A stretch of DNA of 64,000 bases, from NCBI GenBank assembly GCA_000002435.2, contig CM018791.1. The stretch is one strand, 5' to 3'. This document shows positions 1-59,822 of this stretch, piece by piece. This stretch comes from Giardia intestinalis (Eukaryota). Each line of letters starts with the position of its first letter. The stretch's first letter is position 1. The notes under the pieces are model-generated. The model was not told the DNA's origin and ran no database searches. It saw nothing but the letters and a program-made list of their open reading frames with translations. The position numbers and the translations under genes are program-made.

Positions 1-96
1 TATACTATCCCGGCGACTCTCAACCCCAAATCGTATTGTCAGACACACAGATATGTATTTGTTCAGCTAGCCTCAAGTATAGGTGGGGAGGGGGAA

Positions 97-3000
97 ATGG
101 GCATTTATCAAATCGCATTTCTTTGTCACAGTAGCAGCGGTACATCAGTCAGGGTTGTGTTCACGAACATCTCGTGCCTCGAGCCCAAAGTAACGAGCAC
201 GTCTATTGTCATTCCGTTAGAGCTAAACCGTTGGACCACCCTTGCCGTGGACATGGACCAAGTTTTCCGCAATGCGTACAGAAATGCTATCTCATACAAG
301 GGGGTTCTTCAGTTTGAAGCCATGTCGTCCACCGTCATCAAGGGCGTCTATTTTTGCACCAAGCCTTTTACCCCCTATGACGTACCAGAAGTGATGCTGC
401 TTCCTCTTCCACTTGAGTTAGCATCAGGGAATTACAAGTCTCGTTTCCAATCTGATATTCCTCCCCTGTTGCAATTTTATGATTGGATTGCTGTCGGCTT
501 TGACAATGTAAAAGCAAACGATTTTCAAGCAAGCAATAACATTTACAAGAGCAACCTTTCCGGGCTGTGGCCAAAGCTTTGTACGCACGTTGATTTCTTC
601 GATCCGTCCAGAAATGTTGCCAAGCATCCCACCGGGATATCTGGGGAGGTGGTTGCTAGGGTAGAAATCGAAACAATGGGTCCACTACCCACTAAGCTAC
701 GTCCATCTTCTCGTAGGAACCGCGGGAGTACCTCCGCACAGCGAGGCACTGTATCCCTTCAGGATGCCGAAACCATTGATGCACGCATTAAGAGAACAAG
801 GGGCGTTCAGAGTGCGAAGTACAATACCAAATCAAGCACGACAACGCTAGTGACTGCCCAAGTGCCAGGCAACGTTTCTCGCCGGCTATCTGCACCTGTA
901 TCAGCAACTATCTCGTCAGAGAGTGAGAATGTGATGACAGTGCCAGTGCGCACAGCAAATATATCAGAGAAACGGAGTAAGAGAGAACTGGGGGCTGACC
1001 CTGTTACACAGAGACCTAAGTCATATGTCCAACCTACTAATCCTTTAACCGATGAGCCAGATATGTTCCTCCAGAAGGCGGATATTGAGATTCTTAACCA
1101 GGACGTTCCTGAGCTAAATGCTAGCACGCCAGAAAGCGGTGCAATCTTATCTATTTCAGACTCTCGACTCAGAAGTGACGGATGCTGCTCCGTGGAGACG
1201 CCCCTAACCGCAGCCATTTGTGCCCCAACAATTGCAATTACCCAGCCAGTCGCAGTGAAAAGTAAGGTCGATCTGCCAGTTCTCAACCCCTCTGATACCA
1301 CGCAGACATTGACAATAAACCAGCTCCTGGTGGACACTGGAGAAAGAGTTGACCAGGGGCTGCAAGATGGATTTGCAAAATTCAATGAAGGCATGACAGG
1401 TGTCAAGATACTAATAGACAAAATCTATTCACGGCAAAAGCAGATGCTTCGGCATATCAATACAGCAAATATGAGTAGCTTCCTTTTAATCAATAAGGTA
1501 CCGATGCGCTATCTTACACACATGTCTGCGCTTGAGCCTCAAATTACCATAGGGTTTCAATCAACGACTAGATTTATATATTCATTTCCCCACAAATCCC
1601 TGCTCTCTGATCCCCTATCGTGTCACAATGTGGCACGGGGGCTTCTGGATGATGCTACCGATGAGCAGTGTGAGGAGGCTGCGTGCCGGGTCCTCAATGC
1701 CACGTTTAACATGCGCCTTTTTGATTTGATGGAGAGAGCATGTTATCAACCTCCAGTCTGTGATAGTCCTGATGGTGTATCTTTCGCTAGGTCAAAAAAG
1801 GCTTCTAGACCATCCTCTACAAAGTCTCCGGCTAAGTCAGCACCCACTGAGGCCGCTACTGTGCCTGTCCTGGAGCAAGCCAATCAACTTGTTAATGAGA
1901 TATGCCGCCGAACCCTGGCTGCACAAGGGCTCACACCCACGAAGGTGTTTCCCCAGAGGCAAGTTATCCAGGATATTAACCGTGCCTCCATGATTGGGCA
2001 GTCAAAGAGGCGCCTCTACGATGAGAGTGCTGCCAAGATGGAACAACAGTATTCCAGGAAAAAGGTACGTGTGGCCGAACCTCTAACGTTAGCGTTGCAT
2101 CCGTCATCTGGCATCCAACCTGTGTACACAGGCTATCCTCTTGTTCTGTGCTTCCTGAGTGCCAATTATGTAGTTGCACTTCTATCCTTTTATGAATATA
2201 TAGTATCACATGATGGTAGCTATGCGGTGTCCCCGCTCAGGGCGCAATTCTCACTGAGCCATGACTACTGCATCCTCTGTCTCACGTCTATGCTTTTGCA
2301 GGATAAGCACAAGGAGCACACACTTGCACTTCTCCAGATAGATGACGACTCTCTTTCGAATACCTGTACAGAGTCCACCGATCCTGACCACGGTACTCCG
2401 TCCACAGAATGCCTCCACCAGATAGGATATAAGAGCATTCATCAGCAAGTCGGGCTCTACAAGCCCAAGAACTCAACTGAACCATTTACCTATGCACGGT
2501 ATAAGCAGTATAACGGGGATCTGAGCAATCAGACTTCACTAGGTCAAGCAGAGATCCAGGATATTATTGATACCTTGAGCTCTAGTCAGACTGCCGGAGA
2601 GATGAGTGACAAGCAGAGACATGAGTCCACAAAAGTTCTTCTCATTGCCTCTGCAAAGTATTCGCCTTTCGTAGCTGTGTTCTTCGGTACGTACTTGGCA
2701 CTCTTCGAAGTTATGCCCCTTAGTCTTTGCGCACGGCTCAAAGGGCTATTATTCTATAACAGCAACTCCGCCTTTCCACACATTATCCAGGCCGCGTCCT
2801 TTAGCGACGACTCAACCAAGCTGGTCATCGCTGGGTGCAACAGTTCACTGACTTCGGTAGTAACGGCCGTTATAGATCTAACTGATGCCATTGACCTATC
2901 CAACGAATTTATACTTCTATCCGGCATGGCAGTAGGTGATCAATTACAAGCTTCGCCGACCCTTGAACCAGTCATCCAGGTCCTGTTCCATCCAGGGTCA

Positions 3001-6000
3001 AACGACCAGTTCGTGACCCTGTCTGCCACACAATTCAGGGGATGGAGGATTAAATATATTCATGGAGCAGGGTATATTAAGTCTGTTGCAGTGGATATAT
3101 GTAACAAGGAGGTACAATCTAACCTAACCCACAATATCAAGAAGTATGTGTTGGGATACATCTCTGAGAATATCATGCAGCCTGAGAAGGCAAACAAGCG
3201 CTTTCTGTCTGTGCTTTTCAGGCTTATCAAGCGTTTTTCCAGGCTTCTGTTCACTGACATATGCTTTAGCGGACCAAATCGGGTTCAAATAGCAACTGCA
3301 TGTGGCGTGATACTTATCTTTAACTTTACTGAGATACTTCGGGACTCAAGCAAGATTATGCTTTTGCTTCCTAGTAACACACCAGACTACCGTCCTCTGG
3401 CTGCATGCGCCCTCTCAGTTAACCGGGTGCCGGAGCCACTGTTGGACTCCTCCATAAACAACTATATTATCTTCAGCAGCACCGATGGAATCGTTCGAAG
3501 CTGGACGAATAACTTTGAAACGTTGATTATGCAATCTCGCTTTAAAGCCCCAGTTGTCTATCTTCGCGAGGTCATACTTTCTGGGACAAGCCGCATGGAA
3601 GTAATCTCTCCGCCAGTGTATCAATCGGATTATGCTTCGAAGCAACCAAACGGTCCCCTGGGAATAATTGGGGACAGTAAGTTGGGTGGATTTTCCGGCA
3701 TTAGCAAATCGTCCTTTTATGATGATGATGCCATAAAGCACACTGTTGTCTATAGCACTATACCTCCAAATATTTCCAATCTTTCGTCTACCAGACCACG
3801 AGCCACTGATTTGTCTAGACTAGCTCCGCCAGTATATAATACATCTCCTCAGGAACCCCAGAACATCGATGCCCATCTTGCAAACAACATGTATTATATA
3901 AAAAGAGGCCCATTTATGTTACGGCAAGGGTCCTCTCTTATTCCAGATCAGCAATCAGACCAATCGACCATGGATCAGACAGCGACCATGGTGGCCCAGG
4001 ACCTCATTGGACAATTGAGCTACATAAACATGCTAGGCCAAAGAAGTAGGATGCGGCAAAGCATCACTCATGGAGAAAGCACTGGGTCTCAATATCCCTC
4101 TGTGTCTATTGATACCATTTTCTTTGACAGTGCCAGTGATACAAGTGACACTGGATCTAAGCAGCATGAAGTGGTCAACAATGGATTCCGACCCATTAAC
4201 AATGCCACGCAGAAAGACCCTGTTCTGAGCACTCTGCGAATGCACCACAACCACGGTGGCAGCTGCGCGGACTCAAAGACCCTAACTTCTCGCGAGACAG
4301 CAGATTCACTCAATAGGCAATTTAGGAACCTATTAACAACACATCTAAAAGGCAGCACCCAGCGCTTGGTATTTAATAATATAGGACTATCGTTACCTAG
4401 CGTGCCTACTCCAAGCATGAAAATGTTGCAGACTTTACAGGCTCCAACGTCCTCTGGAACATTTATGAGTGTCTGCCTCAACGGAGATGTGGGTCTATTA
4501 TCTGTTGGGGACAGCAAAGGGCCAGTTTACAACACAGTTCTCTGCACACAGTATAAGAACGTCATAGACGCCAGGATTGATCCAAAACACAACGAGGGAG
4601 TCGCTCTCACAAACAATGTGATCAACATTTTCAACTTAACCACGGGGCTGAGGTCAGTATACTTCAAAGTGGCAGATTCGGAGCCAGATACCAGCATGCT
4701 GATCAGCACATACAGCCCCCCTCTGGGAAAGTGCTGCTATCATCCAACTTCCTATGTGATAGCAGTCATGACAAATACCCTGAACTGCCTGCTCCTTGAT
4801 GTTTCTAACCAGACAGTCATCTATAATTGTAACCTCCGCAGCTTCCTGCGAGAAGCTTCAAAATTAGCCGCAGAGCGTTCTGCCAACGCAGAGCTAGAGA
4901 TGATAGCAGTCAATACAACCTACATGCAGTCCATGCACGTTGATGCCTCTATTTATGAGCAGGAGCTGAGCACGCAAGGAGAGTCTGAGCGGGAGGAGCT
5001 CGACTCGTGGATTGGCGAGACGAGTGAGACAATTACTTTTGACAACGATATCATATCTACGTCTAGAGGCGGGCATACAGAGAGCGCTGCCTCTGGGTCA
5101 CATGCTGCAGTCAATAATCGATCTAAGTCCATGCGGTCTGCTTCTGCACGCCAAGCAACTGCCCAGCAGGCTTACTCGGACATATTATCCAGGCAACCCC
5201 AGTCTGTCAAAGTGACTACGGGGTCAAAAAAGCAAGTCGAGGCGGCACTCTATTACATCGCAGAAAGCTACACGAAGATGCTTGTTACCGGTGAGTTAGC
5301 AAGGCCTTTGGAGACTAACCACAATATAATCTTTACTCCCTCCGGTTCTCACCTGCTCTTGTACATAGATAACTACCTATTTTCTATATGCACAAACGGC
5401 TACGCAGAGCTACGGTTGGTGTACATAAGTAACTTTCCAATCAAGCAGGTGGTAGTAGGTGTTAGCGGAGGGTCGTCTAGAAGATCTAGAGAAGTGTTGG
5501 CAATGATTAACTTGCGAAACGAGGTGTCGATCTTCTCAGTTGAAGGTCTGCTCCTCAATTCCAAGCCAAAAATGCTAAGAATAACTCGGTATCCACAATT
5601 AGCACATGCCTATGCATTTCAAAACATGGGCATTCCGTCTGACCGCTATCGATTCGATGACCTGGTACCTTTAATCAAAACACCTGTTCTGATAACCATT
5701 AATGCCATTACAGAGTCGCTTATTGTCCTTGTGGTAGACAGCATCGAAGTCCAAGAGCCTAGCAACATTACTGCTGATGAGAAAGTTATCAGGGACGCAA
5801 ACCGAGCAGGATATAGCATAGCTAAGGGGCAAAGTAGGAATTATGTGGCTGTGTACTCCATCCAGTCATATAGCTTCTCGACTGGCGAAATGGAGTACGA
5901 GATTCCCGTGCACATAGAGTCTGGCAACATCGGGGAGTACATCCCTATTTTCATAGCAAGCTCTCAATTGTCAGGGGCTATCGCCCTCTTCTTCCGAGGC

Positions 6001-6441
6001 TCCAATCGAACCAAGATGATCTCTATCCCCTTAAGTATAGTAGCAGAGGTAGAGATGGAGTTCAGTAAGATTCTTAATAAGCTCACACTGGGAGAGCAGG
6101 TGCAGGTTGATGCATACACAGATATGTCGCGTATTCGATGTAGCATACTAGAGTATCCGATTTATACGGTGGACCACGACTCCAGGTTAGATCGTTTTCT
6201 TGTAACAGGACGAGGTATGCAATCTGTAACTGTCTATACATGGAACACAGGGGAGTATGTGGAGTTCAGCTCCCTTTCGCAATGCATCGAACACGAAGAG
6301 GGATACGACGAAATGGTTAAGAGCTACTTGATAGACCAGCAGGTCAAGAGGGGCATGTCCTTTAATGACCAAAGGTCTAGTGTTGCACAGAGTGCAGCAT
6401 ACACAGACAAAGAAGCAGTTATCTTGACAATTAATACATAA
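97..6441 (+). CDS. Large hypothetical protein (2114 aa) with an N-terminal DUF667/CFAP20-like segment; candidate WDR90/POC16-type basal-body/axoneme protein
   Basis: Complete ORF. There is an in-frame TAG at 67-69 and the first ATG is at 97. Residues 1-17 (MGIYQIAFLCHSSSGTS) and about 18-115 align by eye to the N-terminus and the C-terminal half of CFAP20/DUF667. Matching segments are W..L.VD.DQVFRNAY versus W..IQFNLLDFTRRAYG, IKGVYF versus IRRVYF, and DVPEVMLLPLP versus ELPAEFKLYLP. The remainder is long and non-repetitive and could hold divergent beta-propeller repeats. The ORF call is solid; the product call is tentative. Confidence 0.55.
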   Translation: MGIYQIAFLCHSSSGTSVRVVFTNISCLEPKVTSTSIVIPLELNRWTTLAVDMDQVFRNAYRNAISYKGVLQFEAMSSTVIKGVYFCTKPFTPYDVPEVMLLPLPLELASGNYKSRFQSDIPPLLQFYDWIAVGFDNVKANDFQASNNIYKSNLSGLWPKLCTHVDFFDPSRNVAKHPTGISGEVVARVEIETMGPLPTKLRPSSRRNRGSTSAQRGTVSLQDAETIDARIKRTRGVQSAKYNTKSSTTTLVTAQVPGNVSRRLSAPVSATISSESENVMTVPVRTANISEKRSKRELGADPVTQRPKSYVQPTNPLTDEPDMFLQKADIEILNQDVPELNASTPESGAILSISDSRLRSDGCCSVETPLTAAICAPTIAITQPVAVKSKVDLPVLNPSDTTQTLTINQLLVDTGERVDQGLQDGFAKFNEGMTGVKILIDKIYSRQKQMLRHINTANMSSFLLINKVPMRYLTHMSALEPQITIGFQSTTRFIYSFPHKSLLSDPLSCHNVARGLLDDATDEQCEEAACRVLNATFNMRLFDLMERACYQPPVCDSPDGVSFARSKKASRPSSTKSPAKSAPTEAATVPVLEQANQLVNEICRRTLAAQGLTPTKVFPQRQVIQDINRASMIGQSKRRLYDESAAKMEQQYSRKKVRVAEPLTLALHPSSGIQPVYTGYPLVLCFLSANYVVALLSFYEYIVSHDGSYAVSPLRAQFSLSHDYCILCLTSMLLQDKHKEHTLALLQIDDDSLSNTCTESTDPDHGTPSTECLHQIGYKSIHQQVGLYKPKNSTEPFTYARYKQYNGDLSNQTSLGQAEIQDIIDTLSSSQTAGEMSDKQRHESTKVLLIASAKYSPFVAVFFGTYLALFEVMPLSLCARLKGLLFYNSNSAFPHIIQAASFSDDSTKLVIAGCNSSLTSVVTAVIDLTDAIDLSNEFILLSGMAVGDQLQASPTLEPVIQVLFHPGSNDQFVTLSATQFRGWRIKYIHGAGYIKSVAVDICNKEVQSNLTHNIKKYVLGYISENIMQPEKANKRFLSVLFRLIKRFSRLLFTDICFSGPNRVQIATACGVILIFNFTEILRDSSKIMLLLPSNTPDYRPLAACALSVNRVPEPLLDSSINNYIIFSSTDGIVRSWTNNFETLIMQSRFKAPVVYLREVILSGTSRMEVISPPVYQSDYASKQPNGPLGIIGDSKLGGFSGISKSSFYDDDAIKHTVVYSTIPPNISNLSSTRPRATDLSRLAPPVYNTSPQEPQNIDAHLANNMYYIKRGPFMLRQGSSLIPDQQSDQSTMDQTATMVAQDLIGQLSYINMLGQRSRMRQSITHGESTGSQYPSVSIDTIFFDSASDTSDTGSKQHEVVNNGFRPINNATQKDPVLSTLRMHHNHGGSCADSKTLTSRETADSLNRQFRNLLTTHLKGSTQRLVFNNIGLSLPSVPTPSMKMLQTLQAPTSSGTFMSVCLNGDVGLLSVGDSKGPVYNTVLCTQYKNVIDARIDPKHNEGVALTNNVINIFNLTTGLRSVYFKVADSEPDTSMLISTYSPPLGKCCYHPTSYVIAVMTNTLNCLLLDVSNQTVIYNCNLRSFLREASKLAAERSANAELEMIAVNTTYMQSMHVDASIYEQELSTQGESEREELDSWIGETSETITFDNDIISTSRGGHTESAASGSHAAVNNRSKSMRSASARQATAQQAYSDILSRQPQSVKVTTGSKKQVEAALYYIAESYTKMLVTGELARPLETNHNIIFTPSGSHLLLYIDNYLFSICTNGYAELRLVYISNFPIKQVVVGVSGGSSRRSREVLAMINLRNEVSIFSVEGLLLNSKPKMLRITRYPQLAHAYAFQNMGIPSDRYRFDDLVPLIKTPVLITINAITESLIVLVVDSIEVQEPSNITADEKVIRDANRAGYSIAKGQSRNYVAVYSIQSYSFSTGEMEYEIPVHIESGNIGEYIPIFIASSQLSGAIALFFRGSNRTKMISIPLSIVAEVEMEFSKILNKLTLGEQVQVDAYTDMSRIRCSILEYPIYTVDHDSRLDRFLVTGRGMQSVTVYTWNTGEYVEFSSLSQCIEHEEGYDEMVKSYLIDQQVKRGMSFNDQRSSVAQSAAYTDKEAVILTINT

Positions 6442-6444
6442 AGA

Positions 6445-8931
6445 CTACCAAGGCTCCCACCTGTGGAGGAAGAAAACCACGTTCGTATATCCATTAAGCC
6501 GCGCATAATCGCTTGCTCTACGGCCCATGGCGTCTTTCATCCCAGCCTCTTTTCCAATCATCAGTCGGACTAGCTCACTGTTTCCACAGCCGGCTGCTAT
6601 CATAAGCGCCGTTCTGCCTCTGTGATCCTGCATCTGTGCTTCTGCTTCATGCAAAATTCCTGCACACTCATAGTATCCCCGTGATACAGCCATCATCAGA
6701 GCGGTAGTTCCTTTCAATGTTGTCTGTCTAGAACCGTGCGGAGCAAGGATCCTTACCATGTTTCTATCATTCCTTAAGGTCATGTACATCAGTGGGGTGA
6801 TACCCGTACTGTCTGCAATATGCCCTTCAAACGGAGAGAGAAAGGCCATAATCTCTGGGTAGTAGTATCGCGTCGCTAGCATCAAAGCTGTCTCTCCCGT
6901 CCTATTCTGCATAGCTGCCTCCTTCTTCGCTAACAATCTGACAATCGAAAAGTTCCCGTGCTGGGCGGCATACATCAGAGCTGTGTACTTGCAGGAATCC
7001 TGGTATCCTGCCTCGTATGGAGCCAGGAATCGCGCGGCAAAAAGCTTATTCTTCCGAGCGGCAACCATAAGTGCTGATTCTCCCGCAGGATTGAGCCTGC
7101 CTGCTTCTAGTGGCGCCAGCACACGAACCAGCGAGGGGTTGTTAACACGTACTGCATACATCAGGGCAGTGTCTCCATGATAATGGCCATAGTCTTTTTC
7201 CTTCTTACCCAGCTTTCTAACCTGTAAAATATTTCCTGTTATTAGCGCCTTAATGTACTTCTTACTATAGCTCTTTGCTCGGTACTCGTTCAAAGGGACG
7301 CTTTTCCGCTTAGAAACAGAGGTCCAAACACTTGGAGGTCTAGAGCATGACTGTGCGCTGAACGTCAAGGCGCCGGGTGGCCCTTCTACTTCCTGCTCTT
7401 CATCTGGGTAACACAGAGATGGTAATATGCCATACTTAGTAAGACCTCTTTCATGAGCGTCTTCTTTGTGGCCGCTCTCAGTAACATCGTGCGACGGGGC
7501 GTCCATTGTGCTAAAGGAAATAGATATATCCTCCTTTTTCCTTATCATCTTGTGATGTCTTTGGGGCTTTTGTCTTTTTCTCTTAGCAGAATACTGTGTT
7601 CTAGACCCTGACAATCTCTGAGTAGGCCATGAAGGCGCTTGTCTGTTTGAAGCAACTCTTGACGCAGGACCCTTTCTTTTTGTCGAACTAAGTTTATGAC
7701 ATCGCCTACGTGGATTAAAAAGGGCTTTGACACGCCTGTAGGTCAGTGCCTTTGATTTTTGAGCCTTTTGTATTAGTTTGGACTTCTTTCCCCCGGGTGC
7801 TTTACCTTGCAAGCGACGAAGATAATTAAACTCGTGCCCATATACAGGGGAGGTGCTGCTCGAGCGCTCTGCCATGGAAGAAAACAGGATTTGATCTGCA
7901 GTGTTCGAGCTGCCATTCCCTGATTCATCAAGAGAACTGTGAGAGTCGGAGCTTTTCTCTGAGAGCAGAGAAGCCGACTCTACAGAAATAGATTTCCAGT
8001 TGGGGTCGTTCAAAGCAGAAACGGCAGGATCAGATTGCTGTATTAGAGTAAGGTCGCATAAATCTGTCAGTTCAGCGGATGGATTAGGAACCTTAGCTGA
8101 TAGGTTCGAATTAGCGAATATGGCAAAATGATTTGTAACTCCAAGGCGTTTGGCTAAGAGAGCAGCAGTATCGCCTTGGTTATCTCGTATATCTTCTTCA
8201 AACTTAACTAGCACGCCTGCCGCATCTTGTGCAGTATACAAAATTGCATACATGAGAGCCGTTCTTCCATATTGATCTTTAGCACTTACCAGGGATTGTA
8301 GGGCTTCTGTAGACAGAAGCTTAATTAAGTGATCACCATAGCCACACTTTATAGCCTCCATCAACCCATTGCTTCCATAGTTATTGCACAGGCACACCTC
8401 TTCCAGCAACATCTCTATCACTTGGGAAGATCCGCCGAGAATAGCATAGATCAGCGCAGTGTCACCTGTATAGTCCCTCCGGCCCAGAAGCCTCGCCTTC
8501 AAATCCAGCACGAACTGCGGTCGTGAGTACCAAGCGGCTTTCATAAGCATGGTTGCTCCCTGTTCATCCAGTACATACTGTTCGTAGTGCAGTAGTATGT
8601 TAAAGAGGGCAGCATTCCCCATCTGGACAGCCCAATGGAGAGCACAATAGCCTCTGTTATCGATGACCCCAGCTTCAACAAAAACAAGCAAAGACGCAAC
8701 GTCGGCATTTCCACTTCTTGTTGCAATGATCAGGGCTGTCTCCCCAGCATCGTTACGTTTTCCAGCATCGTGGTTCAGCAGCAACTTAGCCAGGCCCTCA
8801 GATCCCATCCTGGCCGCAACCATCAGCCCTGTGTTCCCGTTAGCTGCTCGCCAATCATCATACAAGGGGAGGAGGGACTCTATCTTCTTGTAGTTCTTGC
8901 TGTAAATGGCATCAAACCAAGCTCTTTTCAT
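6445..8931 (-). CDS. Ankyrin-repeat protein of the Giardia 21.1 type (828 aa from the first ATG). Ankyrin block, then a basic/Ser-rich linker, then a second ankyrin block
   Basis: Repeated G-(E/N)-T-A-L-M-x-A-A-x-x-G...V..L...E units occur at both ends. The ORF-track start at 8982 is GTG (plus-strand cac at 8980-8982). The first in-frame ATG is at 8929-8931, preceded on the minus strand by the AT-rich tatttatttcaga. The stop TAG lies 3 bp from the stop of the convergent plus-strand gene. Confidence 0.6.
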   Translation of the reverse strand: MKRAWFDAIYSKNYKKIESLLPLYDDWRAANGNTGLMVAARMGSEGLAKLLLNHDAGKRNDAGETALIIATRSGNADVASLLVFVEAGVIDNRGYCALHWAVQMGNAALFNILLHYEQYVLDEQGATMLMKAAWYSRPQFVLDLKARLLGRRDYTGDTALIYAILGGSSQVIEMLLEEVCLCNNYGSNGLMEAIKCGYGDHLIKLLSTEALQSLVSAKDQYGRTALMYAILYTAQDAAGVLVKFEEDIRDNQGDTAALLAKRLGVTNHFAIFANSNLSAKVPNPSAELTDLCDLTLIQQSDPAVSALNDPNWKSISVESASLLSEKSSDSHSSLDESGNGSSNTADQILFSSMAERSSSTSPVYGHEFNYLRRLQGKAPGGKKSKLIQKAQKSKALTYRRVKALFNPRRRCHKLSSTKRKGPASRVASNRQAPSWPTQRLSGSRTQYSAKRKRQKPQRHHKMIRKKEDISISFSTMDAPSHDVTESGHKEDAHERGLTKYGILPSLCYPDEEQEVEGPPGALTFSAQSCSRPPSVWTSVSKRKSVPLNEYRAKSYSKKYIKALITGNILQVRKLGKKEKDYGHYHGDTALMYAVRVNNPSLVRVLAPLEAGRLNPAGESALMVAARKNKLFAARFLAPYEAGYQDSCKYTALMYAAQHGNFSIVRLLAKKEAAMQNRTGETALMLATRYYYPEIMAFLSPFEGHIADSTGITPLMYMTLRNDRNMVRILAPHGSRQTTLKGTTALMMAVSRGYYECAGILHEAEAQMQDHRGRTALMIAAGCGNSELVRLMIGKEAGMKDAMGRRASDYARLNGYTNVVFFLHRWEPW

Positions 8932-9073
8932 TCTGAAATAAATAGGGTCAGCGGTATGTGGAATCCAGGATGTGAGTGGCACTCTGTAAAGATTGACACG
9001 GCTTCTTGACAGAAGATAAACATTGACGGCGTTTAATTGTGTTAGTAATTTGAATTTAGGAGTATAAAATAAA
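8932..9073. promoter_or_regulatory. Bidirectional promoter/initiator region between the 828-aa ankyrin gene (-) and Fe-ADH (+)
   Basis: AT-rich elements abut both ATGs: aaaataaaATG on the plus strand and tatttatttcagaATG on the minus strand. Confidence 0.5.
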
Positions 9074-10297
9074 ATGGGAGATTTTTATGAAGAATTCGAC
9101 ATTTCTCATGTTGTTAGGCTGACACATGGGACGAAAAAGGGGCTCTATCTGGGCTACGGGGCCATTGCAAAGTTTGGAGAGGCCCTAGACGACCTTAAAC
9201 CATCCTGTCTGGGTTTTGTCACATCGCCGTCTGCCTACAAGAAATGTGGGCTCTGGGACACGATTGCCTCCGAACTGGAGAAGCGCGGCATCCCGTACTT
9301 GCACTACGACAAGATTATGACGAATCCTACCGTCGAGGCCTTGACGGAGGCTGTTGAGCTTTTTAGTCCGAAGTACGATCAGAACTTCGTAGTGTGCAGC
9401 ATTGGTGGAGGCTCTCCCGGAGATTCGGCCAAGTCGATTGCTGTGCTTCTCGAGCACAGAGACAAGACGGCCGTTGACCTTTACACGCACACGTTTGCCC
9501 CTGACCGCCGCTCTAAGCTTATCATGGTCAACATCACCCACGGGACTGGAACTGAGTGTGACATGTTTGCAGTGGCTTCTATCCTCACCGGGAACTCCCA
9601 CCCTTACAAGCCATGCATTGCCACATCGGTCATCTATCCTGATTACTCCTTTGATGATGTCAATGGGATGCTTTCTATGAACACCGACATGATCCGTTTC
9701 ACGACGATTGATGCTCTCAACCATGTAATGGAAGGCTCCACCACGACGATAGCTACGCCATACTCGTGCACCCTGGCACGAGAGGTTGTTTTCCTAGTCG
9801 CTCGCTATCTCCCCAGAGCCCTTGCCGATAAAGACGATAGGCGCGCCCGCTATTGGCTGACGTACGCTGCAGCCATAGCTGGTCTGTGCTTCGATGAAAG
9901 TTGCTTACATCTCACCCATGCTCTAGAGCATACGCTCTCAGCATATGTGCCAAACCTCATCCACGGGCAAGGTCTGGCACTCCTCCAGCCGGCGGTCCTC
10001 AAGCACATCTGGCCGAAGGTCTGTGGCTACCTGAACGACCTCTTTAGGCCGATCCTGGGGAACCTCAAAGGAACACCCGACGAAGCAGAACAGGCTTTCA
10101 GGCGCATGCGTGCCTTCCACAACAAGGTCGGCTTTTCGGGGACGCTGGCGGACATAGGGTTCTCCAAAGCAGACGTCGAAAAGCTTGTCGAGGCAACCTG
10201 GGCATGCCCGGGCATGGATGGGCTGATAGCTCTCTCGCCCGCTCCGTGTGAGAAGGCAGATGCTGCGCGCATTTTCTCCGAGTCCTTCTACAAGTGA
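9074..10297 (+). CDS. Iron-containing (group III) alcohol dehydrogenase, 407 aa
   Basis: GGGSPGDSAK NAD(P)-binding motif; HALEHTLSAY-type His cluster typical of Fe-ADH. ATG in AT-rich context (gtataaaataaaATGgga). AGTGAAC poly(A) signal 9 nt after the TGA stop. Confidence 0.8.
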   Translation: MGDFYEEFDISHVVRLTHGTKKGLYLGYGAIAKFGEALDDLKPSCLGFVTSPSAYKKCGLWDTIASELEKRGIPYLHYDKIMTNPTVEALTEAVELFSPKYDQNFVVCSIGGGSPGDSAKSIAVLLEHRDKTAVDLYTHTFAPDRRSKLIMVNITHGTGTECDMFAVASILTGNSHPYKPCIATSVIYPDYSFDDVNGMLSMNTDMIRFTTIDALNHVMEGSTTTIATPYSCTLAREVVFLVARYLPRALADKDDRRARYWLTYAAAIAGLCFDESCLHLTHALEHTLSAYVPNLIHGQGLALLQPAVLKHIWPKVCGYLNDLFRPILGNLKGTPDEAEQAFRRMRAFHNKVGFSGTLADIGFSKADVEKLVEATWACPGMDGLIALSPAPCEKADAARIFSESFYK

Positions 10298-12378: not shown

Positions 12379-13350
12379 TTACTCATCTTCATCTGTAGCG
12401 CCGCCCTGATCTTCTGCTTCACGCTTACTTGCTTTAGCTCTTCGTTCTCGATTACGAGGCTTCCCTGTCCCTGTTTCAGGCTTTGTCTCTGACTTATGAT
12501 AGCAATGACCAGTTCCCGCTATTAAGCAACGGTTGCACTCGGGGAAGCTTGCCTTGCAGACGGTTTGTCCAAAGCCGACAAGCAGATGGTTAATATCTCG
12601 CCACTTGTCCTTTGGCAAGGTCTCGACTAGCTGCTTGGCCACATCATCTGGATTTAGCATCTTCCCGTTAGGCTCACACATTCCTTTTTCGACCCATCTC
12701 AGCCTCTGCGCTATGCGGCACACGTGCGTATCCACTGCTATTCCCTCGACTTGGCCATAGACGATCTGAACCAACAAGTGCCCCATTTTTGGTCCAAAGC
12801 CGGGGAGCTTTAGAATACCCGCGAGGTCCTTGGGAATATCGCCCCCATAGTTGTCTAGGCATATCTGAGCAACGTTCTTCATGTACTCTGCCTTTCTTCG
12901 ACAGAAGCCCACTGGATGGATTATCCTCCCCAACTCATCTAGTCCAGAGTCCACCACGTTCTTCGCTGTCAGCCTCCACGCATCAAGCTTCATTAGGTTG
13001 TCAATATCGATAGGAAAGTTCTTCTTGAGCATGGCTTCTGCTTTGGTGGACTTCTGCAGCCCCTTCGTCTTTTCTTCAAACTCTGCCTCGAGCTTCTTTA
13101 AACGCTCTTTGTCAAGGCCGTCAGGGGGCACTGGAAGCATATGATTAAGTTTGTACATGGCGGCAGCGGTTACTCTATCCAGATTTCTGGCAGACAGGAG
13201 AAGGCCTATGGCAAAGCGGAAGCGACCATCTGGAGTTTCTGTTGTATCCGAGAGCATGTGCGCCCCGAATACATCGACGGGGCAGACATACTCTGCCCGC
13301 ATTGTCTCTATTTTCTCCCATGTATCCTCAAGATCCGGGATCGGAGCCAT
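12379..13350 (-). CDS. NTH1: Endonuclease III (Nth) homologue, HhH-GPD DNA glycosylase with a [4Fe-4S] cluster loop
   Basis: HhH-GPD elements LPGFGPKMGHLL and VDTHVCRIAQRL (catalytic Asp). C-terminal CKASFPECNRCLIAGTGHC Cys ladder. ATG confirmed (cat at 13348-13350) with AT-rich upstream on the minus strand. Confidence 0.8.
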   Translation of the reverse strand: MAPIPDLEDTWEKIETMRAEYVCPVDVFGAHMLSDTTETPDGRFRFAIGLLLSARNLDRVTAAAMYKLNHMLPVPPDGLDKERLKKLEAEFEEKTKGLQKSTKAEAMLKKNFPIDIDNLMKLDAWRLTAKNVVDSGLDELGRIIHPVGFCRRKAEYMKNVAQICLDNYGGDIPKDLAGILKLPGFGPKMGHLLVQIVYGQVEGIAVDTHVCRIAQRLRWVEKGMCEPNGKMLNPDDVAKQLVETLPKDKWRDINHLLVGFGQTVCKASFPECNRCLIAGTGHCYHKSETKPETGTGKPRNRERRAKASKREAEDQGGATDEDE

Positions 13351-13371
13351 TTAATTGTAGTATTTTTTGAA
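13351..13371. promoter_or_regulatory. 21-bp AT-rich bidirectional initiator between Nth (-) and the NTase gene (+)
   Basis: The sequence is ttaattgtagtattttttgaa, flanked by a start codon on each strand. Confidence 0.5.
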
Positions 13372-15327
13372 ATGAACGATTCTTCTCACGAAGCCCTTTG
13401 TCCAGAGTGCCGCGGACGGTATGGCTTCTCGTCGCTGGCAACACACCTATGTTTGGAACATGGGTTTTGTCCTTTTTGTCCCTCTGAAAAGTACATCACA
13501 GAAGATTTGTATCCTGAGTTAATTTGCACACGGAAAGAGCTGGTGGGTCGGCTAGCCCAGGTCTATCGGAAGGTAGCCAGTGACCTTCTTGCGCCACGGG
13601 AGACTGGCTTTTCTCTTGAAGCCTGTAGCTCAATCTATTCGACATATATAGCGTCGTTCTCTCTCCTACGCAAATTTCCTTACGGCCTTTCACCTCCTGT
13701 TGCAATGCTTGTGCATCTTATCATTGAGCATCCAGCAGTAGGATATAGGTTATTGTGCTCATTGAGTGGTGCTGAATCCCTGACAGCAATTTATGCCCTT
13801 GCTTCTTACAGCGAGCTGGTGCCACAAGAAGATGCTCAACTTTGTCCTGATTGCTTTCTCTTTTACACTGACCCAGCCAATCACCACAGTCAGTGTAAGA
13901 GATACTATAGATATCATTTTAAGCATCACCTTCACTATCAGGGCTGTCTAACAGATTGCTTAGCAGGCTCCATGTCATCTGCATATGCGTCAGCTAGGAC
14001 GATCATTGGCCAGTACTTTTGTCCAGAGAGTTTAAAGAACAATCTACACTGTGCTCGATACTATATGAATCTATATGCACCAGTTAGCTCTACTACAGCC
14101 AAGAGTGTGGAGGACAGCCTACGGGGCTATCTTACCCGCTACCCCGTATTCACATCCCTTAGTTACCCAGACAAGGCATACAAAGTCAAGTCTTTCGAGC
14201 TCCAGGGCTCGTACGCTTTTGGCAAGGCCACCATTTACTCAGATATAGACTTTCACCTCGTTATTCTAAAGCTTGAGGGTGTGGAAATGAATGACTTGAC
14301 TTCTGAGGACACAAAAGACTGCTTGTCCTCTCTGATCAGGCACCTACAGGCACCCTCGGCAGGTGAGTGGCTGAGCCAGTTCTCGATGGATAAACCAATT
14401 AAGTATTGCAGGGGTACTACAGGGTTCATAGAGTTTTCACTTAAGAATGCAACGCAATCTGTTAGCCTAGTATTTGGCAGCCAACACCATCTATCTGCTG
14501 GACGGCGGCGACTTGCAATTATGCGGTCCTTTTATCTCGACAAGCTCGCCATCTATGAACGTGCAGAGGGGTTCCTAAAGCAGTGGTTGTTTATGAGTAG
14601 GACAACCGAGGGTAGCACTGCAATGGGCCTCACAAAGTTTGCATCACTGACCATCTTGCAGCGCGTGTGCCTTTTTACTGATGCTGGCAGTCTTCTCCGG
14701 CGGTTCATTTGCTATGATTCAAGTGAAACCTACGAGGCCATGCTAGATCCGCCTTCTGTTGACAGTGTAACTTTTAGCGAGTCGCTGACTCTTTATCAAT
14801 ACGACTATAATGTACGCGGCATAGAAAAAACTATTAACCTTGCTGGATTGCATCCAAACCCCGAGTTAGTTGATCCAGCAAAATTCAAACAACTAGCGAT
14901 TGACCACTGTGCTGACAATAGATCAAAACGTGATATTCTTGACGCCATATTGCAGTTAGCAGATACTCCTGAGGAGATCTCGTTCATCTGGGCCTTTACT
15001 CTCATCCACGAGGTATTGCGCTACCACCGAGACTTCTATCAGCAGACACTTAGATGTAAGTTGAGCTCCGATCAAGAAATGTCAACAACGAATGTTCTGT
15101 ACAGTCTGCGTGATTTATTGAGCATCTCTAATGACTTGGAGCCCATTTCCACGGAAACGCGTACGTGTGTATCTGCACACGTGACAAAAACCATGACATT
15201 AGCCTGTGCATTTAGAATACTCTTAACCGTGGAAACAAGCATGCTGTTTTTGCGATACTTTCTACCCACCCCTCCGCACTGCAGCACAGCAGATCGCGAA
15301 GTTCTTCATAAACTCATTGCAATCTAA
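13372..15327 (+). CDS. Cid1/Gld2-type (Pol-beta-like) nucleotidyltransferase candidate with an N-terminal C2H2-like zinc finger (651 aa from the ATG at 13372)
   Basis: CPEC-x12-HLCLEH is a C2H2 pattern at 13399-13465. GSYAFGKATIYSDIDFHLVIL at 14206-14256 matches the NTase hG[GS]x9SDxD signature (compare Cid1 GSLESGLALKNSDMDL). The ORF-track start at 13141 overlaps the Nth gene by 210 bp. The in-frame ATG at 13372 has a classic AT-rich initiator (gtagtattttttgaaATGaac) and removes the overlap. Confidence 0.55.
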   Translation: MNDSSHEALCPECRGRYGFSSLATHLCLEHGFCPFCPSEKYITEDLYPELICTRKELVGRLAQVYRKVASDLLAPRETGFSLEACSSIYSTYIASFSLLRKFPYGLSPPVAMLVHLIIEHPAVGYRLLCSLSGAESLTAIYALASYSELVPQEDAQLCPDCFLFYTDPANHHSQCKRYYRYHFKHHLHYQGCLTDCLAGSMSSAYASARTIIGQYFCPESLKNNLHCARYYMNLYAPVSSTTAKSVEDSLRGYLTRYPVFTSLSYPDKAYKVKSFELQGSYAFGKATIYSDIDFHLVILKLEGVEMNDLTSEDTKDCLSSLIRHLQAPSAGEWLSQFSMDKPIKYCRGTTGFIEFSLKNATQSVSLVFGSQHHLSAGRRRLAIMRSFYLDKLAIYERAEGFLKQWLFMSRTTEGSTAMGLTKFASLTILQRVCLFTDAGSLLRRFICYDSSETYEAMLDPPSVDSVTFSESLTLYQYDYNVRGIEKTINLAGLHPNPELVDPAKFKQLAIDHCADNRSKRDILDAILQLADTPEEISFIWAFTLIHEVLRYHRDFYQQTLRCKLSSDQEMSTTNVLYSLRDLLSISNDLEPISTETRTCVSAHVTKTMTLACAFRILLTVETSMLFLRYFLPTPPHCSTADREVLHKLIAI

Positions 15328-36667: not shown

Positions 36668-38410
36668 TCACTTGATATCGACGCAGATGTCAGCCTGCTC
36701 CAGGCCCAGATAACGCGTATAGGCTGCAGGTGCACCCTCAACCGCCTTGGGAGTAAAGGGCGTGAGCTGCGGGATCTTGTCCAGGACGGCCTTCAGAGAC
36801 CCGGCCTTGGCGGCACCCTTCAGGCTGACAACAGGCATCGACGGCATCCTCCACGTGATGTAAGGGACCCTTCCCTCAGATACGAGCTTTTGGTAGAGCC
36901 CGTACGCATCTGCGATGATCTCCCTGCTGGGAGCAGCATCATCTCTCAAGTTGATCTTCAGACCATCAATAAGGTCGTCCACGCTTGAGGGAATGTAGAT
37001 CACGCAATCAAACTTCTTCCCCGCCGCATCAACTGGCTCGCCATTCTTCTCATATATGGCGGCAATTCCGTCACCCTCCTGCTCACACGCCTTGACGGCA
37101 GCAGGGGCCAGCGGCGTGCGGTAAACAACCTGAGATGCGCAGTGCAGAGAGCCGTACATGCGGGTGATTCCTCGGAACGGAACGTAAACTAGATCGAGCC
37201 CGTTCGGCAAGTTGTTTGATTTGCAGTATGAGATGTACGCAGGATCTGCCTTGATGAAGTCCACTGTTGGTTGGTGGACGCTGAGGACGCAGTTGTTTCC
37301 CAGATTGAGATTATTGCAGCCATATGCAAGCTGGTACTCATGAGGAATGCGGACGATCGTGTAACCATTTTCGCTGAGCCACTGCTGGAACTCAACATTT
37401 GCCTTCGCCAAGACGTAATTTCCACAAGTGACTGCGGAGCTCTTTGCTTTTTTCACTGCATCAGCACCGACATCAATCCACTCGTCGACGTACCTCAGGC
37501 CCATCCCGGAGCAAATATAGTCATCGAGCACCACTAGCTTGTCGTGGAGGACGCTGAAGGTGCAGTCAAGGTGCATACGGTCCTGGTGCTGATCAAAGCA
37601 GTCCTTGACGACAGCAAACCGCCGGGTCCCGAGGAGATCTTTAGACATAAGATACTGCGCTCCGACATAGGTGCTGCGCAAGCCCACACCCATCATCGCC
37701 AGCCCGGGCGACACAGGCACGAAGTCCCCACCCTCGAGCATGCAGTGCGGTCCTCCCTCACGGCAGTCTCCCACGACGCGGGCCCCGAGGCGCTTCCAGA
37801 AGATCAGGGCCAGGACCTGCTCGCGCCTCCTCTGCGGCGCCTGAAACTGGCCCATGACTATTCCGCGCCGGGTGGTTATCTGCTGGTCACGCATAAAGAC
37901 CATGTTATTGCTATCGTGGATCTCCACAGAGTTGGTAACGAGAGCCGTGTTGCGGACACCAGGAGCTAGGTGGATGACGGGCTCGGATAAAATCACGTCT
38001 ACAAGGTTTCTGGTCGACAGGGCCGAAAGGACCTTGCGTTTGTACTCGTCCGAAACACAGTACTTCATCTTGGGGGTGATGCGTGCACCTGTGGCATGGA
38101 GCTCGTACTTCAGCGAGGCCATTGCTTGATCCATGAGGACCTCCCTCTCAGCCGGAGAGGCCTCGGAGAGGACGTCGTACGGCATATAAACCCGGCACCC
38201 CTTCTCCTTGAGAACGGCCTGGAAGCCCTCGTGATCGCGTCTGAGCTCGTCGGGGCATATGGGCTCCTCAAGCAAGTTCCCCTCGGGGTTGAGAGAGGTC
38301 AAGAACGACGTTCCCTGAGGGAGGTGCACGACGACTATCTCTGCGCGCTCGTTCTCTCCCCCCTGGGTTGCCTGTGCAAGCTTCTCTTTATCCTTGGAGA
38401 AGTCAGTCAT
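36668..38410 (-). CDS. ADI: Arginine deiminase (arginine dihydrolase pathway), 580 aa with a long C-terminal extension
   Basis: Guanidino-modifying fold signatures. Catalytic Cys in MYGSLHCASQ, at residue about 424 from codon position. The 580-aa length matches the known Giardia enzyme. ATG confirmed. AGTGAAT poly(A) signal 3 nt after the TGA stop. Confidence 0.9.
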   Translation of the reverse strand: MTDFSKDKEKLAQATQGGENERAEIVVVHLPQGTSFLTSLNPEGNLLEEPICPDELRRDHEGFQAVLKEKGCRVYMPYDVLSEASPAEREVLMDQAMASLKYELHATGARITPKMKYCVSDEYKRKVLSALSTRNLVDVILSEPVIHLAPGVRNTALVTNSVEIHDSNNMVFMRDQQITTRRGIVMGQFQAPQRRREQVLALIFWKRLGARVVGDCREGGPHCMLEGGDFVPVSPGLAMMGVGLRSTYVGAQYLMSKDLLGTRRFAVVKDCFDQHQDRMHLDCTFSVLHDKLVVLDDYICSGMGLRYVDEWIDVGADAVKKAKSSAVTCGNYVLAKANVEFQQWLSENGYTIVRIPHEYQLAYGCNNLNLGNNCVLSVHQPTVDFIKADPAYISYCKSNNLPNGLDLVYVPFRGITRMYGSLHCASQVVYRTPLAPAAVKACEQEGDGIAAIYEKNGEPVDAAGKKFDCVIYIPSSVDDLIDGLKINLRDDAAPSREIIADAYGLYQKLVSEGRVPYITWRMPSMPVVSLKGAAKAGSLKAVLDKIPQLTPFTPKAVEGAPAAYTRYLGLEQADICVDIK

Positions 38411-46553: not shown

Positions 46554-48029
46554 ATGACAAATGCGTACATGGGGGCGACAGACATAGAGAGCACCGCTCT
46601 GCAGGAGCGATGTTCAACTCTGCAGAAGGAAAACTATGAGTTGAGACAGCGGGTCTTTTCTCTTGAGAAGAAACTTGCAGACACGTCAAACAGCCTTAAA
46701 GATGAGTGTGCACGCGAGAGGGCCCGGTACAGAGCTCTAGAGGCGAAGATGGATGAATTTCAGCTTACAACAGAAAGGCATGCTACAAAGCGTGTTGAGG
46801 ACCTTATGCTTGAATGTAGGGATTTAAAGGCCAACTTATCACGAGAGCGGGACCGCACAAAAGCAATGGAGCAGGAGCTCGATGCCCTGTCCAGCTATGC
46901 CAGCGAACGGATCAACCTTTCTCGCCGCCTGGAAATAGCAGAGTCTCGAGTGTCAGACCTAGAAACTCTCCTCGATGTAGATCGAAAGCAGTTCCTTGCA
47001 GAGGCGGCAGAGCAGCGGGCAATGCTCGAAAGCAGGCACCGTGCAGAGGTCCAGGCTGCCGTTGAGGAAGCAATCCGGGCCACCAATGAGAACATTTCCA
47101 CCGAAACGCGCCTCCTCAGAGACCAGAACCAAATCTTGCAGAAGTCAGTTCTTATTTTGAAGGGTTCGGGCGGCAATACAGGTACGAGGCGGGTTCCCAC
47201 AATCAGCAGGATGGAGTCAGAGCTTCCTGGTACCAGCGTGAGCCGCTCACGAACGACCTCTCAGCTCTCCATGGCCAAGGCATCTGTCTCCGGGCATATA
47301 AACTGCGACGAAATAGAAAAGTTTGAAATGGACATCAGCAGAGGTTTAGAAATGAGGATAGGAGAACTCAAAATGACTGTCAAGCATCTTCAAGCAAAAC
47401 TCGAAGAGCAGGCGTCCGATTTTAAGCGGGAGAAAAACGAGGCTAGTGAGTTTATCGCCAATCTCATCTCGAAGTTCAACAAGGAACGTGCAGATCTCCT
47501 CTTCGAAATAAAGTCTCTCGAAAAGCTCGTCTATGCTAAGTGCAAAGAACTCTACAAGCTGCGGACTTTGGCGCAAATGCTTCTTCAGCGCAGGACTGAT
47601 CTGGAAGCGTTTTTATCTAAGCTCTTGGCTGCAACCCTCGACCTGGAGACGAGGGCTATCAGCCCCTACACGATGGCTGAGTACTTTGACGTTGAAATGG
47701 GCCGCCGGCGGTCCTGGTCGCCGTCTCCACCACCAGATTACCGATACACTAGCGGTGCCATCCCCCGAAGCATTTCCTCGGGTTCCGCTCCTGCAGCAGG
47801 AGCGGGGACTTGTCGGGAACTTGCCGCCATCATGACCCGGACTAACCTGAATTCAAACGAGGCTCTCTCCTCCATCACACCGAAGATGCCGCGCACCATG
47901 GCAGAAATGGAGCGCTCTCTAAATACTGCTATCCGAGTGCGCTCTGATCCACTGATAAATTCATTGAGTTCACAAGAGGTTGCTAATATTGTACGCGACT
48001 GGATTACGAAAATAGACATCCCCCTCTAG
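46554..48029 (+). CDS. Coiled-coil protein, 491 aa
   Basis: Heptad-rich throughout (LQKENYELRQRVFSLEKKL, LETLLDVDRKQFLAEAAEQ). An alternative in-frame ATG lies at 46569. The stop is 10 bp from the stop of the convergent 3147-aa gene. Confidence 0.55.
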   Translation: MTNAYMGATDIESTALQERCSTLQKENYELRQRVFSLEKKLADTSNSLKDECARERARYRALEAKMDEFQLTTERHATKRVEDLMLECRDLKANLSRERDRTKAMEQELDALSSYASERINLSRRLEIAESRVSDLETLLDVDRKQFLAEAAEQRAMLESRHRAEVQAAVEEAIRATNENISTETRLLRDQNQILQKSVLILKGSGGNTGTRRVPTISRMESELPGTSVSRSRTTSQLSMAKASVSGHINCDEIEKFEMDISRGLEMRIGELKMTVKHLQAKLEEQASDFKREKNEASEFIANLISKFNKERADLLFEIKSLEKLVYAKCKELYKLRTLAQMLLQRRTDLEAFLSKLLAATLDLETRAISPYTMAEYFDVEMGRRRSWSPSPPPDYRYTSGAIPRSISSGSAPAAGAGTCRELAAIMTRTNLNSNEALSSITPKMPRTMAEMERSLNTAIRVRSDPLINSLSSQEVANIVRDWITKIDIPL

Positions 48030-59740: not shown

Positions 59741-59822
59741 CAGAATCAATTTCCTTTTTCGGAATCATGCACTGACGATGACGGGCCCGAAAAGCCTTAT
59801 TTACACATACACAGGAGATAAG

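What the first reader, a model, noticed from the sequence alone, without database searches (positions are those of the whole stretch)
97..6441. 2114-aa protein begins with a shortened DUF667/CFAP20-like domain; possible WDR90/POC16 orthologue
Residues 1-17 resemble the extreme N-terminus of CFAP20 (TFQSGFLSIL versus IYQIAFLCHS). Residues about 40-115 align well to the C-terminal half of DUF667 (FRNAY, IKGVYF, DVPEVMLLPLP). Relative to CFAP20, about 75 residues appear to be missing between them. DUF667 followed by a very long tail is the architecture of WDR90/POC16, an inner-junction/centriole protein, which is plausible in a flagellate. The apparent internal deletion inside a normally rigid, highly conserved domain is unusual.
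Basis: partly seen in the sequence, partly recalled or inferred. Interest (0 to 1): 0.55.

Follow-up and report, generated by a model that had tools for sequence, protein, structure and literature searches.

The report
Window-truncated Giardia WDR90-like gene
The "shortened" CFAP20-like domain is an artefact of the window cutting off the first 60 codons of a known 2206-residue Giardia gene, which has a complete domain and is probably a very divergent relative of the centriole protein WDR90/POC16.

Summary
The ORF at 97..6441 is real, but it is not a whole gene. Its reading frame is open from window base 1. The translation of bases 1-6438 is 100% identical to residues 61-2206 of Giardia intestinalis WB GL50803_0017092 (UniProt A8BPJ5, 2206 aa, annotated as a hypothetical / CFA20 domain-containing protein). 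The ATG at base 97 is internal Met93, and it is Thr or Ile in other assemblages.

In the full-length protein, Pfam CFA20_dom covers profile positions 25-181 of 185 in one stretch. A family profile aligns without a break to residues 29-190 of solved CFAP20 (193 aa). So there is no internal deletion.

The WDR90/POC16 idea is partly supported:
- The N-domain is clearly closer to WDR90-type N-domains than to CFAP20.

Against it:
- No sequence profile detects WD40 or WDR90 in the tail.
- The first half of the tail could not be modelled.
- A database-wide HMMER search found only diplomonad-like relatives plus short unnamed fragments.

The finding is ordinary and of low interest.

The parts
1..6441 (+). 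3' 97% of the coding sequence of GL50803_0017092. It covers residues 61-2206 of 2206 plus the stop codon at 6439-6441. The first 60 codons lie upstream of the window.
   Evidence: The frame is open from base 1. BLASTP gives 2146/2146 identity to P0018 residues 61-2206. P0018 is XP_001705766.1 / A8BPJ5. Window base 1 equals L001:10094 and the conserved ATG is at L001:9914.
97..99 (+). Internal ATG (Met93 of the full-length protein).
   Evidence: This position is Thr, Ile or another residue in the orthologues (GEGETG, GEGEIG, GE-DIG). The upstream codons 1-96 are part of the annotated protein.
1..396 (+). Part of the CFA20/DUF667 domain that lies inside the window (residues 61-192 of the full-length protein). 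The whole domain spans residues 28-192.
   Evidence: Pfam PF05018 on P0018: residues 28-192 match profile 25-181 of 185, E 3.5e-11. On the window ORF alone only profile 98-181 is matched. Family profile A9 against solved CFAP20: profile 31-201 matches CFAP20 29-190 of 193, E 5.7e-9.
397..675 (+). Conserved extension after the CFA20 domain, with the motifs PPLLQFYDWIAVGF and LWPKLCTHVDFF. It is shared with Spironucleus and with unnamed relatives and fragments.
   Evidence: Alignments A6 and A9: Y160, W162 and G166 are invariant or nearly invariant across the family, including the fragments P0008-P0010. No function was tested.
676..2067 (+). A variable Ser/Thr/Lys-rich linker, then a conserved, mostly helical middle region (window-translation residues ~376-600).
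   Evidence: Conservation is low across assemblages in residues ~226-375 and high in 376-600. The AF2 model of this region has pLDDT below 50, so its structure is unknown.
2068..3600 (+). First conserved beta-rich block of the tail (window-translation residues ~690-1200). It may be a first propeller, but this is unresolved.
   Evidence: The block is conserved in all seven family members, e.g. FSDDSSKLVIAG and FVTLSATQFRGWR. AF2 predicts beta-hairpin repeats, but with pLDDT 50-68 at best and pTM 0.28. Foldseek gives only weak propeller matches: WDR26 E 1.4e-4; 9d5n_CH (named CFAP52) E 1.6e-3; three other ~607-620-aa doublet-microtubule chains E 3.7e-3 to 9e-3. No Pfam or PDB sequence hit.
4456..6240 (+). 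Predicted seven-bladed WD40-type beta-propeller (window-translation residues ~1486-2080). It is interrupted by a ~160-residue helical/disordered insertion encoded at bases ~4834-5310.

Best explanation
Bases 1-6441 are the body of a known Giardia intestinalis WB gene, GL50803_0017092 (2206 aa). Its first 60 codons were cut off by the window edge. The ATG at base 97 is internal Met93. The 'shortened DUF667 domain' is therefore a sampling artefact, and the real protein carries a complete CFA20 domain at residues ~28-192.

The protein belongs to a family that I found only in diplomonads (named Giardia assemblages and Spironucleus), in two unnamed full-length relatives (P0005, P0006) and in a few unnamed fragments. 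Its layout is: an N-terminal CFA20 domain, a conserved extension, a disordered linker, and a long beta-rich tail that ends in a predicted seven-bladed WD40-type propeller.

Inferred mechanism: by analogy with POC16/WDR90, the CFA20 domain binds tubulin at the A-B inner junction of basal-body triplets (or of Giardia's long cytoplasmic axonemes), as FAP20 does in doublets. The propeller tail would project inward as a scaffold or docking module.

Shown here: the gene's identity, the truncation, the completeness of the domain, the WDR90-type affinity of the N-domain, and one predicted propeller. Inferred only: orthology to WDR90/POC16, microtubule binding, and localisation.

Sub-confidences: truncation artefact ~0.98; WDR90/POC16 orthology ~0.6.
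For: Truncation:
- The frame is open from base 1.
- 100% identity to residues 61-2206 of GL50803_0017092.
- Window base 1 is 180 nt downstream of the conserved ATG in L001.
- Orthologues of 2178-2206 aa all carry the N-terminal extension.
- An independent gene call, P0013, starts at the same MKPLSA.

Complete domain:
- Pfam CFA20_dom covers profile 25-181 of 185 in one stretch.
- The family profile aligns without a break to solved CFAP20 residues 29-190 of 193, with E between 6e-9 and 3e-6 for eight distinct CFAP20 sequences.

WDR90-like:
- The N-domain HMM built only from diplomonad-type sequences scores 74 bits on P0011 and 47 bits on human WDR90 N-terminus (sequence recalled from memory). 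It scores 34 bits on P0016, which is 58% identical to that recalled sequence. It scores only 27 bits on CFAP20.
- hhalign against the WDR90-type alignment: probability 99.1, E 1.7e-18. Against CFAP20: probability 91.9, E 7e-7.
- A C-terminal propeller is predicted at usable confidence and matches WD40 propellers.
- The length (2206 aa) is comparable to Chlamydomonas POC16 at 2083 aa (PMC6399476).
- The family is defined as DUF667 followed by WD40 propellers (PMC7500955, PMC4004596).
Against: - No WD40 or any propeller Pfam family hits the Giardia tail, even at E <= 10. The only trace is a weak Beta-prop_EML_2 hit (E 0.012) in the Spironucleus orthologue.
- Tail profiles find no solved WD40 protein by sequence.
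- A full HMMER search of 1.84 billion representatives, using the first 1167 profile positions, found only 9 proteins. None was a recognisable full-length WDR90 or CFAP20.
- The first half of the tail gave a model with pLDDT 36.7. 'Multiple propellers' is therefore unproven, and the ordered tail may hold about two propellers, fewer than I recall for WDR90.
- The WDR90-type comparison set includes short fragments of unknown full architecture, plus one sequence recalled from memory.
- CFAP20DC was not compared.
- No localisation or functional data were found.
Confidence: 0.6

Rival explanations
1. The protein is a lineage-specific CFA20-domain protein that is not orthologous to WDR90/POC16. It could be an independent fusion of a CFA20 domain to a generic WD40 propeller, or a CFAP20DC-like paralogue. 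The shared architecture would then be convergent.
For: The database-wide HMMER search returned only diplomonad-like proteins and short fragments. The tail has no detectable sequence similarity to any WD40 or WDR90 family. The best structural matches are generic WD40 propellers such as CFAP251, coatomer and PWP2. The ordered tail is short enough for about two propellers in the compact Spironucleus orthologue, whose tail is 918 aa.
Against: The N-domain is much closer to WDR90-type N-domains than to CFAP20, including the shared V-N/D-x-F-K ... KG-V---VD--I-R-V----G--S-AN motif pattern. The order of domains and the overall length match POC16/WDR90 (PMC6399476). From memory, CFAP20DC has no propeller tail.
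Confidence: 0.3
2. The gene really starts at the ATG at base 97 and encodes a 2114-aa protein whose DUF667 domain has lost ~75 internal residues.
For: Within the window, base 97 holds the first ATG of the frame, and the Pfam match on that ORF covers only profile 98-181.
Against: The frame is open upstream to the window edge. The annotated protein and all orthologues continue upstream. Met93 is not conserved. The upstream residues align to profile positions 25-97 of the same domain. The supposed N-terminal match aligns to a mid-domain strand.
Confidence: 0.01
3. Besides the full-length protein, a shorter isoform is translated from Met93. It would lack the N-terminal half of the CFA20 domain.
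For: Only that an in-frame ATG exists at base 97.
Against: The Met is replaced by Thr or Ile in assemblage B and in other lineages. Half of a beta-sandwich domain is unlikely to fold. No transcript or proteomic evidence was available.
Confidence: 0.03

Closest known systems
POC16 / WDR90 (centriole central-core, inner-junction microtubule-wall protein)
   Same: Both have an N-terminal CFA20/DUF667 domain followed by a very long tail with WD40-type propeller structure. The lengths are comparable (2206 aa against 2083 aa for Chlamydomonas POC16). The N-domain profile is closest to WDR90-type N-domains (PMC7500955, PMC6399476).
   Different: The tail has no sequence-detectable WD40 repeats or WDR90-specific similarity. 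Only one propeller is predicted with confidence. Large disordered and helical insertions are present. The WDR90 insertion between LQFP and RWT in the N-domain is absent. Localisation and microtubule binding are untested.
CFAP20 / FAP20 / BUG22 (axonemal doublet inner-junction protein)
   Same: The same domain fold family. The family profile aligns to solved CFAP20 residues 29-190 with only small indels.
   Different: CFAP20 is a ~190-aa single-domain protein, whereas this one is 2206 aa. Sequence similarity is lower than to WDR90-type domains: 17% against 26% identity, and hhalign E 7e-7 against 1.7e-18.
CFAP20DC (C3orf67), the third CFA20-domain family in animals
   Same: An N-terminal CFA20 domain with a long C-terminal extension (from memory).
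   Different: From memory, its tail is not a WD40 propeller.
Generic seven-bladed WD40 propellers (CFAP251/WDR66, coatomer beta-prime, WDR5, CFAP52)
   Different: There is no sequence-level WD40 signature. One blade junction carries a ~160-residue insertion.

Membership tests
POC16/WDR90 | DUF667/CFA20 domain at the N-terminus | tested here: met
   PF05018 on full-length P0018: residues 28-192 match profile 25-181 of 185, E 3.5e-11, 43.6 bits against a cut-off of 24. The orthologues behave the same way. Alignment to solved CFAP20 residues 29-190.
POC16/WDR90 | N-domain of the WDR90 subtype rather than the CFAP20 subtype | tested here: met
   HMM built only from diplomonad-type sequences: 47 bits on human WDR90 N-terminus (recalled), 34 bits on P0016, 74 bits on P0011, against 27 bits on CFAP20. 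hhalign E 1.7e-18 against 7e-7. Caveats: the reference sets are small, one sequence was recalled from memory (checked indirectly), and CFAP20DC was not included.
POC16/WDR90 | Multiple WD40 repeats forming several beta-propellers after the DUF667 domain | tested here: inconclusive
   One seven-bladed propeller is predicted in the last ~600 residues. The model of the first half of the tail was unusable, with pLDDT 36.7, and gave only weak propeller hints. No WD40 Pfam hit at E <= 10.
POC16/WDR90 | Significant sequence similarity of the whole protein or its tail to recognised WDR90/POC16 proteins (reciprocal best match) | tested here: not met
   HMMER with the first 1167 profile positions against 1.84 billion representatives gave 9 hits at E <= 1e-3: diplomonad-like proteins and short fragments. 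The word-indexed searches returned only Giardia proteins. Full-length WDR90 sequences could not be fetched for a direct tail comparison.
POC16/WDR90 | Localisation to the microtubule wall of the centriole or basal-body central core, and direct binding of microtubules and tubulin by the DUF667 domain | not testable with these tools
   No paper held in the library mentions the gene identifiers. The gene is absent from the 2016 inventory of Giardia basal-body proteins.
CFAP20/FAP20 | Small (~190 aa) protein consisting only of the CFA20 domain | tested here: not met
   The protein is 2206 aa, with ~2000 residues after the domain.
WD40 repeat (PF00400) | Sequence match to the WD40 repeat profile | tested here: not met
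   No WD40 hit on the whole protein or on four tail pieces at E <= 10. The fold-level match is strong for the C-terminal domain only.
CFAP20DC | CFA20 domain of the CFAP20DC subtype with a non-propeller tail | not tested
The predicted propeller argues against it only on the basis of my memory of that family.

The most novel reading that the evidence does not exclude
Diplomonads carry a drastically remodelled CFA20-domain protein: a WDR90-type inner-junction head on a reduced, sequence-unrecognisable propeller tail with lineage-specific insertions. It either replaces canonical POC16/WDR90 or is an independent fusion. It may act along Giardia's unusually long cytoplasmic axonemes rather than only in the basal-body core.
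Probability: 0.2. Interest if true: 0.4.

Novelty: new member of a known kind. Interest (0 to 1): 0.15.

Why it matters
The unusual feature that drew attention, a deletion inside a rigid and highly conserved domain, does not exist. Nothing here bears on CFA20-domain structure.

What remains is modest. GL50803_0017092 is annotated only as a hypothetical / CFA20 domain-containing protein. It is missing from the published inventory of Giardia basal-body proteins that I checked (PMC4931700). It is nonetheless the best candidate for the Giardia counterpart of the centriole inner-junction protein POC16/WDR90. That gives Giardia cell biologists a concrete gene to tag when studying how its eight basal bodies and long cytoplasmic axonemes are stabilised.

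There is also a procedural lesson. ORFs that begin near a window edge should be checked for an open upstream frame before their N-termini are interpreted.

Tried and rejected
- **Exact look-up of the 2114-aa ORF.** Not on record, because the real product is longer.
- **PDB sequence searches.** The whole-protein profiles A1 and A6 and a single N-terminal sequence gave no hits. Only the N-domain profile A9 found CFAP20. The tail profiles A7 and A8 found nothing.
- **Second and third word-indexed homologue searches.** A6 returned only the same four Giardia proteins. A9 added only short CFA20 fragments. Neither retrieved a full-length WDR90.
- **Fetching a WDR90-type genomic locus for a tail comparison.** No DNA was available for P0015. 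A 1523-aa product lies downstream on the same strand, but no sequence is held.
- **AlphaFold database search.** The afdb50 library was not available, so the propeller could not be compared with WDR90 models.
- **hhalign of the two tail halves against each other.** No similarity.
- **Fold search with the low-confidence first-half model.** Only weak propeller hits, treated as hints.
- **Literature.** No paper links Giardia with WDR90, POC16 or DUF667, or mentions the gene identifiers. Lauwaet et al. 2011 is not held.
- **Rejected ideas.** An upstream exon is not needed, because the upstream sequence is one continuous ORF. An internal deletion is rejected. An alternative start at Met93 is rejected because the Met is not conserved.
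Full report
**What is at the coordinates**

The mechanical ORF list gives a 2114-codon ORF from the ATG at base 97 to the stop at 6439-6441 on the + strand. Pfam CFA20_dom (PF05018, formerly DUF667) matches this ORF only at residues 15-100, which correspond to profile positions 98-181 of 185 (E 2.1e-6, 28 bits against a cut-off of 24).

**Why the domain looks shortened**

- The reading frame has no stop codon between window base 1 and the ATG at 97.
- The four closest database relatives are 2177-2204 aa, and all carry extra N-terminal sequence.
- An independent assembly of the same locus (L001) shows that window base 1 corresponds to L001:10094. The ATG conserved in the family (MKPLSA...) lies at L001:9914, exactly 60 codons upstream.
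- A cluster look-up identifies the gene. The translation of window 1-6438 is 100% identical (2146/2146) to residues 61-2206 of GL50803_0017092 / XP_001705766.1 / UniProt A8BPJ5 from Giardia intestinalis WB C6. That protein is 2206 aa and is named 'hypothetical protein' or 'CFA20 domain-containing protein'.
- The neighbouring genes fit Giardia: arginine deiminase, Fe-alcohol dehydrogenase, ankyrin 'protein 21.1'-type ORFs and very short intergenic spacers.
- The ATG at base 97 is Met93 of the real protein. It is Thr or Ile in other assemblages, and another residue in more distant relatives.

**The domain is complete**

- On the full-length protein, CFA20_dom matches residues 28-192 to profile 25-181 of 185 in a single stretch (E 3.5e-11). 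The orthologues behave the same way.
- A profile of the family's N-terminal region aligns to eight distinct solved CFAP20 sequences (7rro, 8j07, 6u42, 8g2z and others) over CFAP20 residues 29-190 of 193. The E-values run from 5.7e-9 to 2.9e-6. The only notable indel is a ~6-residue loop insertion.
- There is no internal deletion. The 'missing ~75 residues' are the 60 codons outside the window plus the 32 codons in bases 1-96.

**The family**

A full HMMER search of 1.84 billion cluster representatives, using the first 1167 profile positions, found only nine proteins at E <= 1e-3.

| Hit | Length | Identity |
|---|---|---|
| P0004 | 2178 aa | Giardia-like orthologue |
| P0005 | 1882 aa | unnamed, full-length relative |
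| P0006 | 1956 aa | unnamed, full-length relative |
| P0007 | 1504 aa | Spironucleus salmonicida SS50377_23538 |
| P0008-P0012 | 87-216 aa | short unnamed fragments |

All three full-length relatives (P0005-P0007) align with the Giardia protein along the whole tail, in four conserved beta-rich blocks separated by variable insertions. Neither a named full-length WDR90 nor canonical CFAP20 reached significance in that search.

**Is it WDR90/POC16-like?**

[quoted passage not shown] Chlamydomonas POC16 is 2083 aa. The DUF667 domain binds microtubules and tubulin and is proposed to sit at the A-B inner junction of the centriole core (PMC7500955, PMC6399476, PMC4004596).

*N-domain subtype.* An HMM built only from the diplomonad-type N-domains gave the following scores.

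| Target | Bits |
|---|---|
| P0011, a 209-aa fragment with the WQHPYVNVFK N-terminus | 74 |
| P0014 and P0015, partial domains | 41 and 39 |
| P0016, 58% identical to the recalled WDR90 sequence (E 5e-82) | 34 |
| CFAP20 | 27 |

The match between the recalled WDR90 sequence and P0016 supports both the recollection and the identity of P0016.

Profile-profile comparison points the same way. Against the WDR90-type alignment, hhalign gives probability 99.1, E 1.7e-18 and 26% identity over 164 columns. Against CFAP20 it gives probability 91.9, E 7e-7 and 17% identity. The head domain is therefore of the WDR90 type, with two caveats: the reference sets are small, and CFAP20DC was not compared.

*Tail, by sequence.*
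- Pfam finds no WD40 or other propeller family in the Giardia protein, even when the tail is scanned in four pieces at E <= 10.
- The only trace is a sub-threshold Beta-prop_EML_2 hit (E 0.012) in the Spironucleus orthologue.
- Tail profiles find no solved protein by sequence.

*Tail, by predicted structure.*
- An AlphaFold2 model of the last 677 residues, built from the seven-sequence alignment, has pTM 0.63. Its structured core is at pLDDT 80-93 and consists of four-stranded antiparallel repeats. A ~160-residue helical/disordered insertion interrupts it.
- Foldseek against the PDB gives 1082 matches at E <= 1e-3, led by ODA16, WDR5 and LIS1.
- The model of window-translation residues 370-1260 was unusable (pLDDT 36.7, pTM 0.28). 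Its fold matches are weak, although all are propellers. They include 9d5n_CH, which names as CFAP52, and three other doublet-microtubule chains of similar length. I treat these only as hints.
- The AlphaFold database library was unavailable. WDR90 genomic loci could not be fetched. A direct comparison with WDR90 propellers was therefore not possible.

**Conclusion**

The 'shortened domain' is a window-edge artefact (confidence about 0.98).

The gene encodes a complete CFA20 domain of WDR90 type, fused to a long and highly divergent tail with at least one predicted WD40-type propeller. The most likely reading, at about 0.6, is a very divergent diplomonad orthologue of POC16/WDR90, acting as an inner-junction and scaffold protein of basal bodies and perhaps of the cytoplasmic axonemes. 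The main rival, at about 0.3, is a lineage-specific CFA20-domain protein whose resemblance to WDR90 is architectural only.

No functional or localisation data were found. The gene is absent from the 2016 table of Giardia basal-body proteins. It is a new, divergent member of a known kind, and the interest is low.

Noticed in passing
window 15329-36631 (-): A single uninterrupted 7100-codon ORF. Neither half matches any Pfam family at E <= 1e-3. It is a giant protein with no recognisable domain.
   Followed up: partly
window 48040-57483 (-): A 3147-aa ORF whose only Pfam match is a BEACH domain at residues 2473-2663 (E 6e-28).
   Followed up: partly
window 57560-59749 (-): A 729-aa ORF with CoA_binding, Succ_CoA_lig and ATP-grasp_5 domains. 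From memory, this combination is typical of ADP-forming acetyl-CoA synthetase. A 320-aa ORF on the opposite strand (57563-58525) is probably spurious.
   Followed up: partly
window 36668-38410 (-), 9074-10297 (+), 6445-8982 (-), 38685-40967 (-), 41097-45470 (+): Arginine deiminase (580 aa), an Fe-dependent alcohol dehydrogenase, and three ankyrin-repeat ORFs. All are packed with intergenic gaps of only a few to ~100 bases. This gene set helped identify the window as Giardia.
   Followed up: yes
L001 8695-9969 (-) versus L001 9914 (+): In the automatic gene calls of the Logan contig, the divergent upstream gene (424 aa) overlaps the conserved start codon of the CFA20 gene by 56 nt. The CFA20 gene itself was called from a downstream Met, giving 2177 aa instead of 2206. 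One or both start calls are probably wrong.
   Followed up: partly
window 397-675 (+), with P0008-P0010: A ~70-90-residue extension directly after the CFA20 domain (motif Y-D-W-x-x-V-G-F/I) is conserved from Giardia to Spironucleus and in the short unnamed fragments. It matches no Pfam family. It may be a family-specific addition to the microtubule-binding head.
   Followed up: no
window 13141-15327 (+) and 46554-48029 (+): ORFs of 728 aa and 491 aa with no Pfam match at E <= 1e-3.
   Followed up: no
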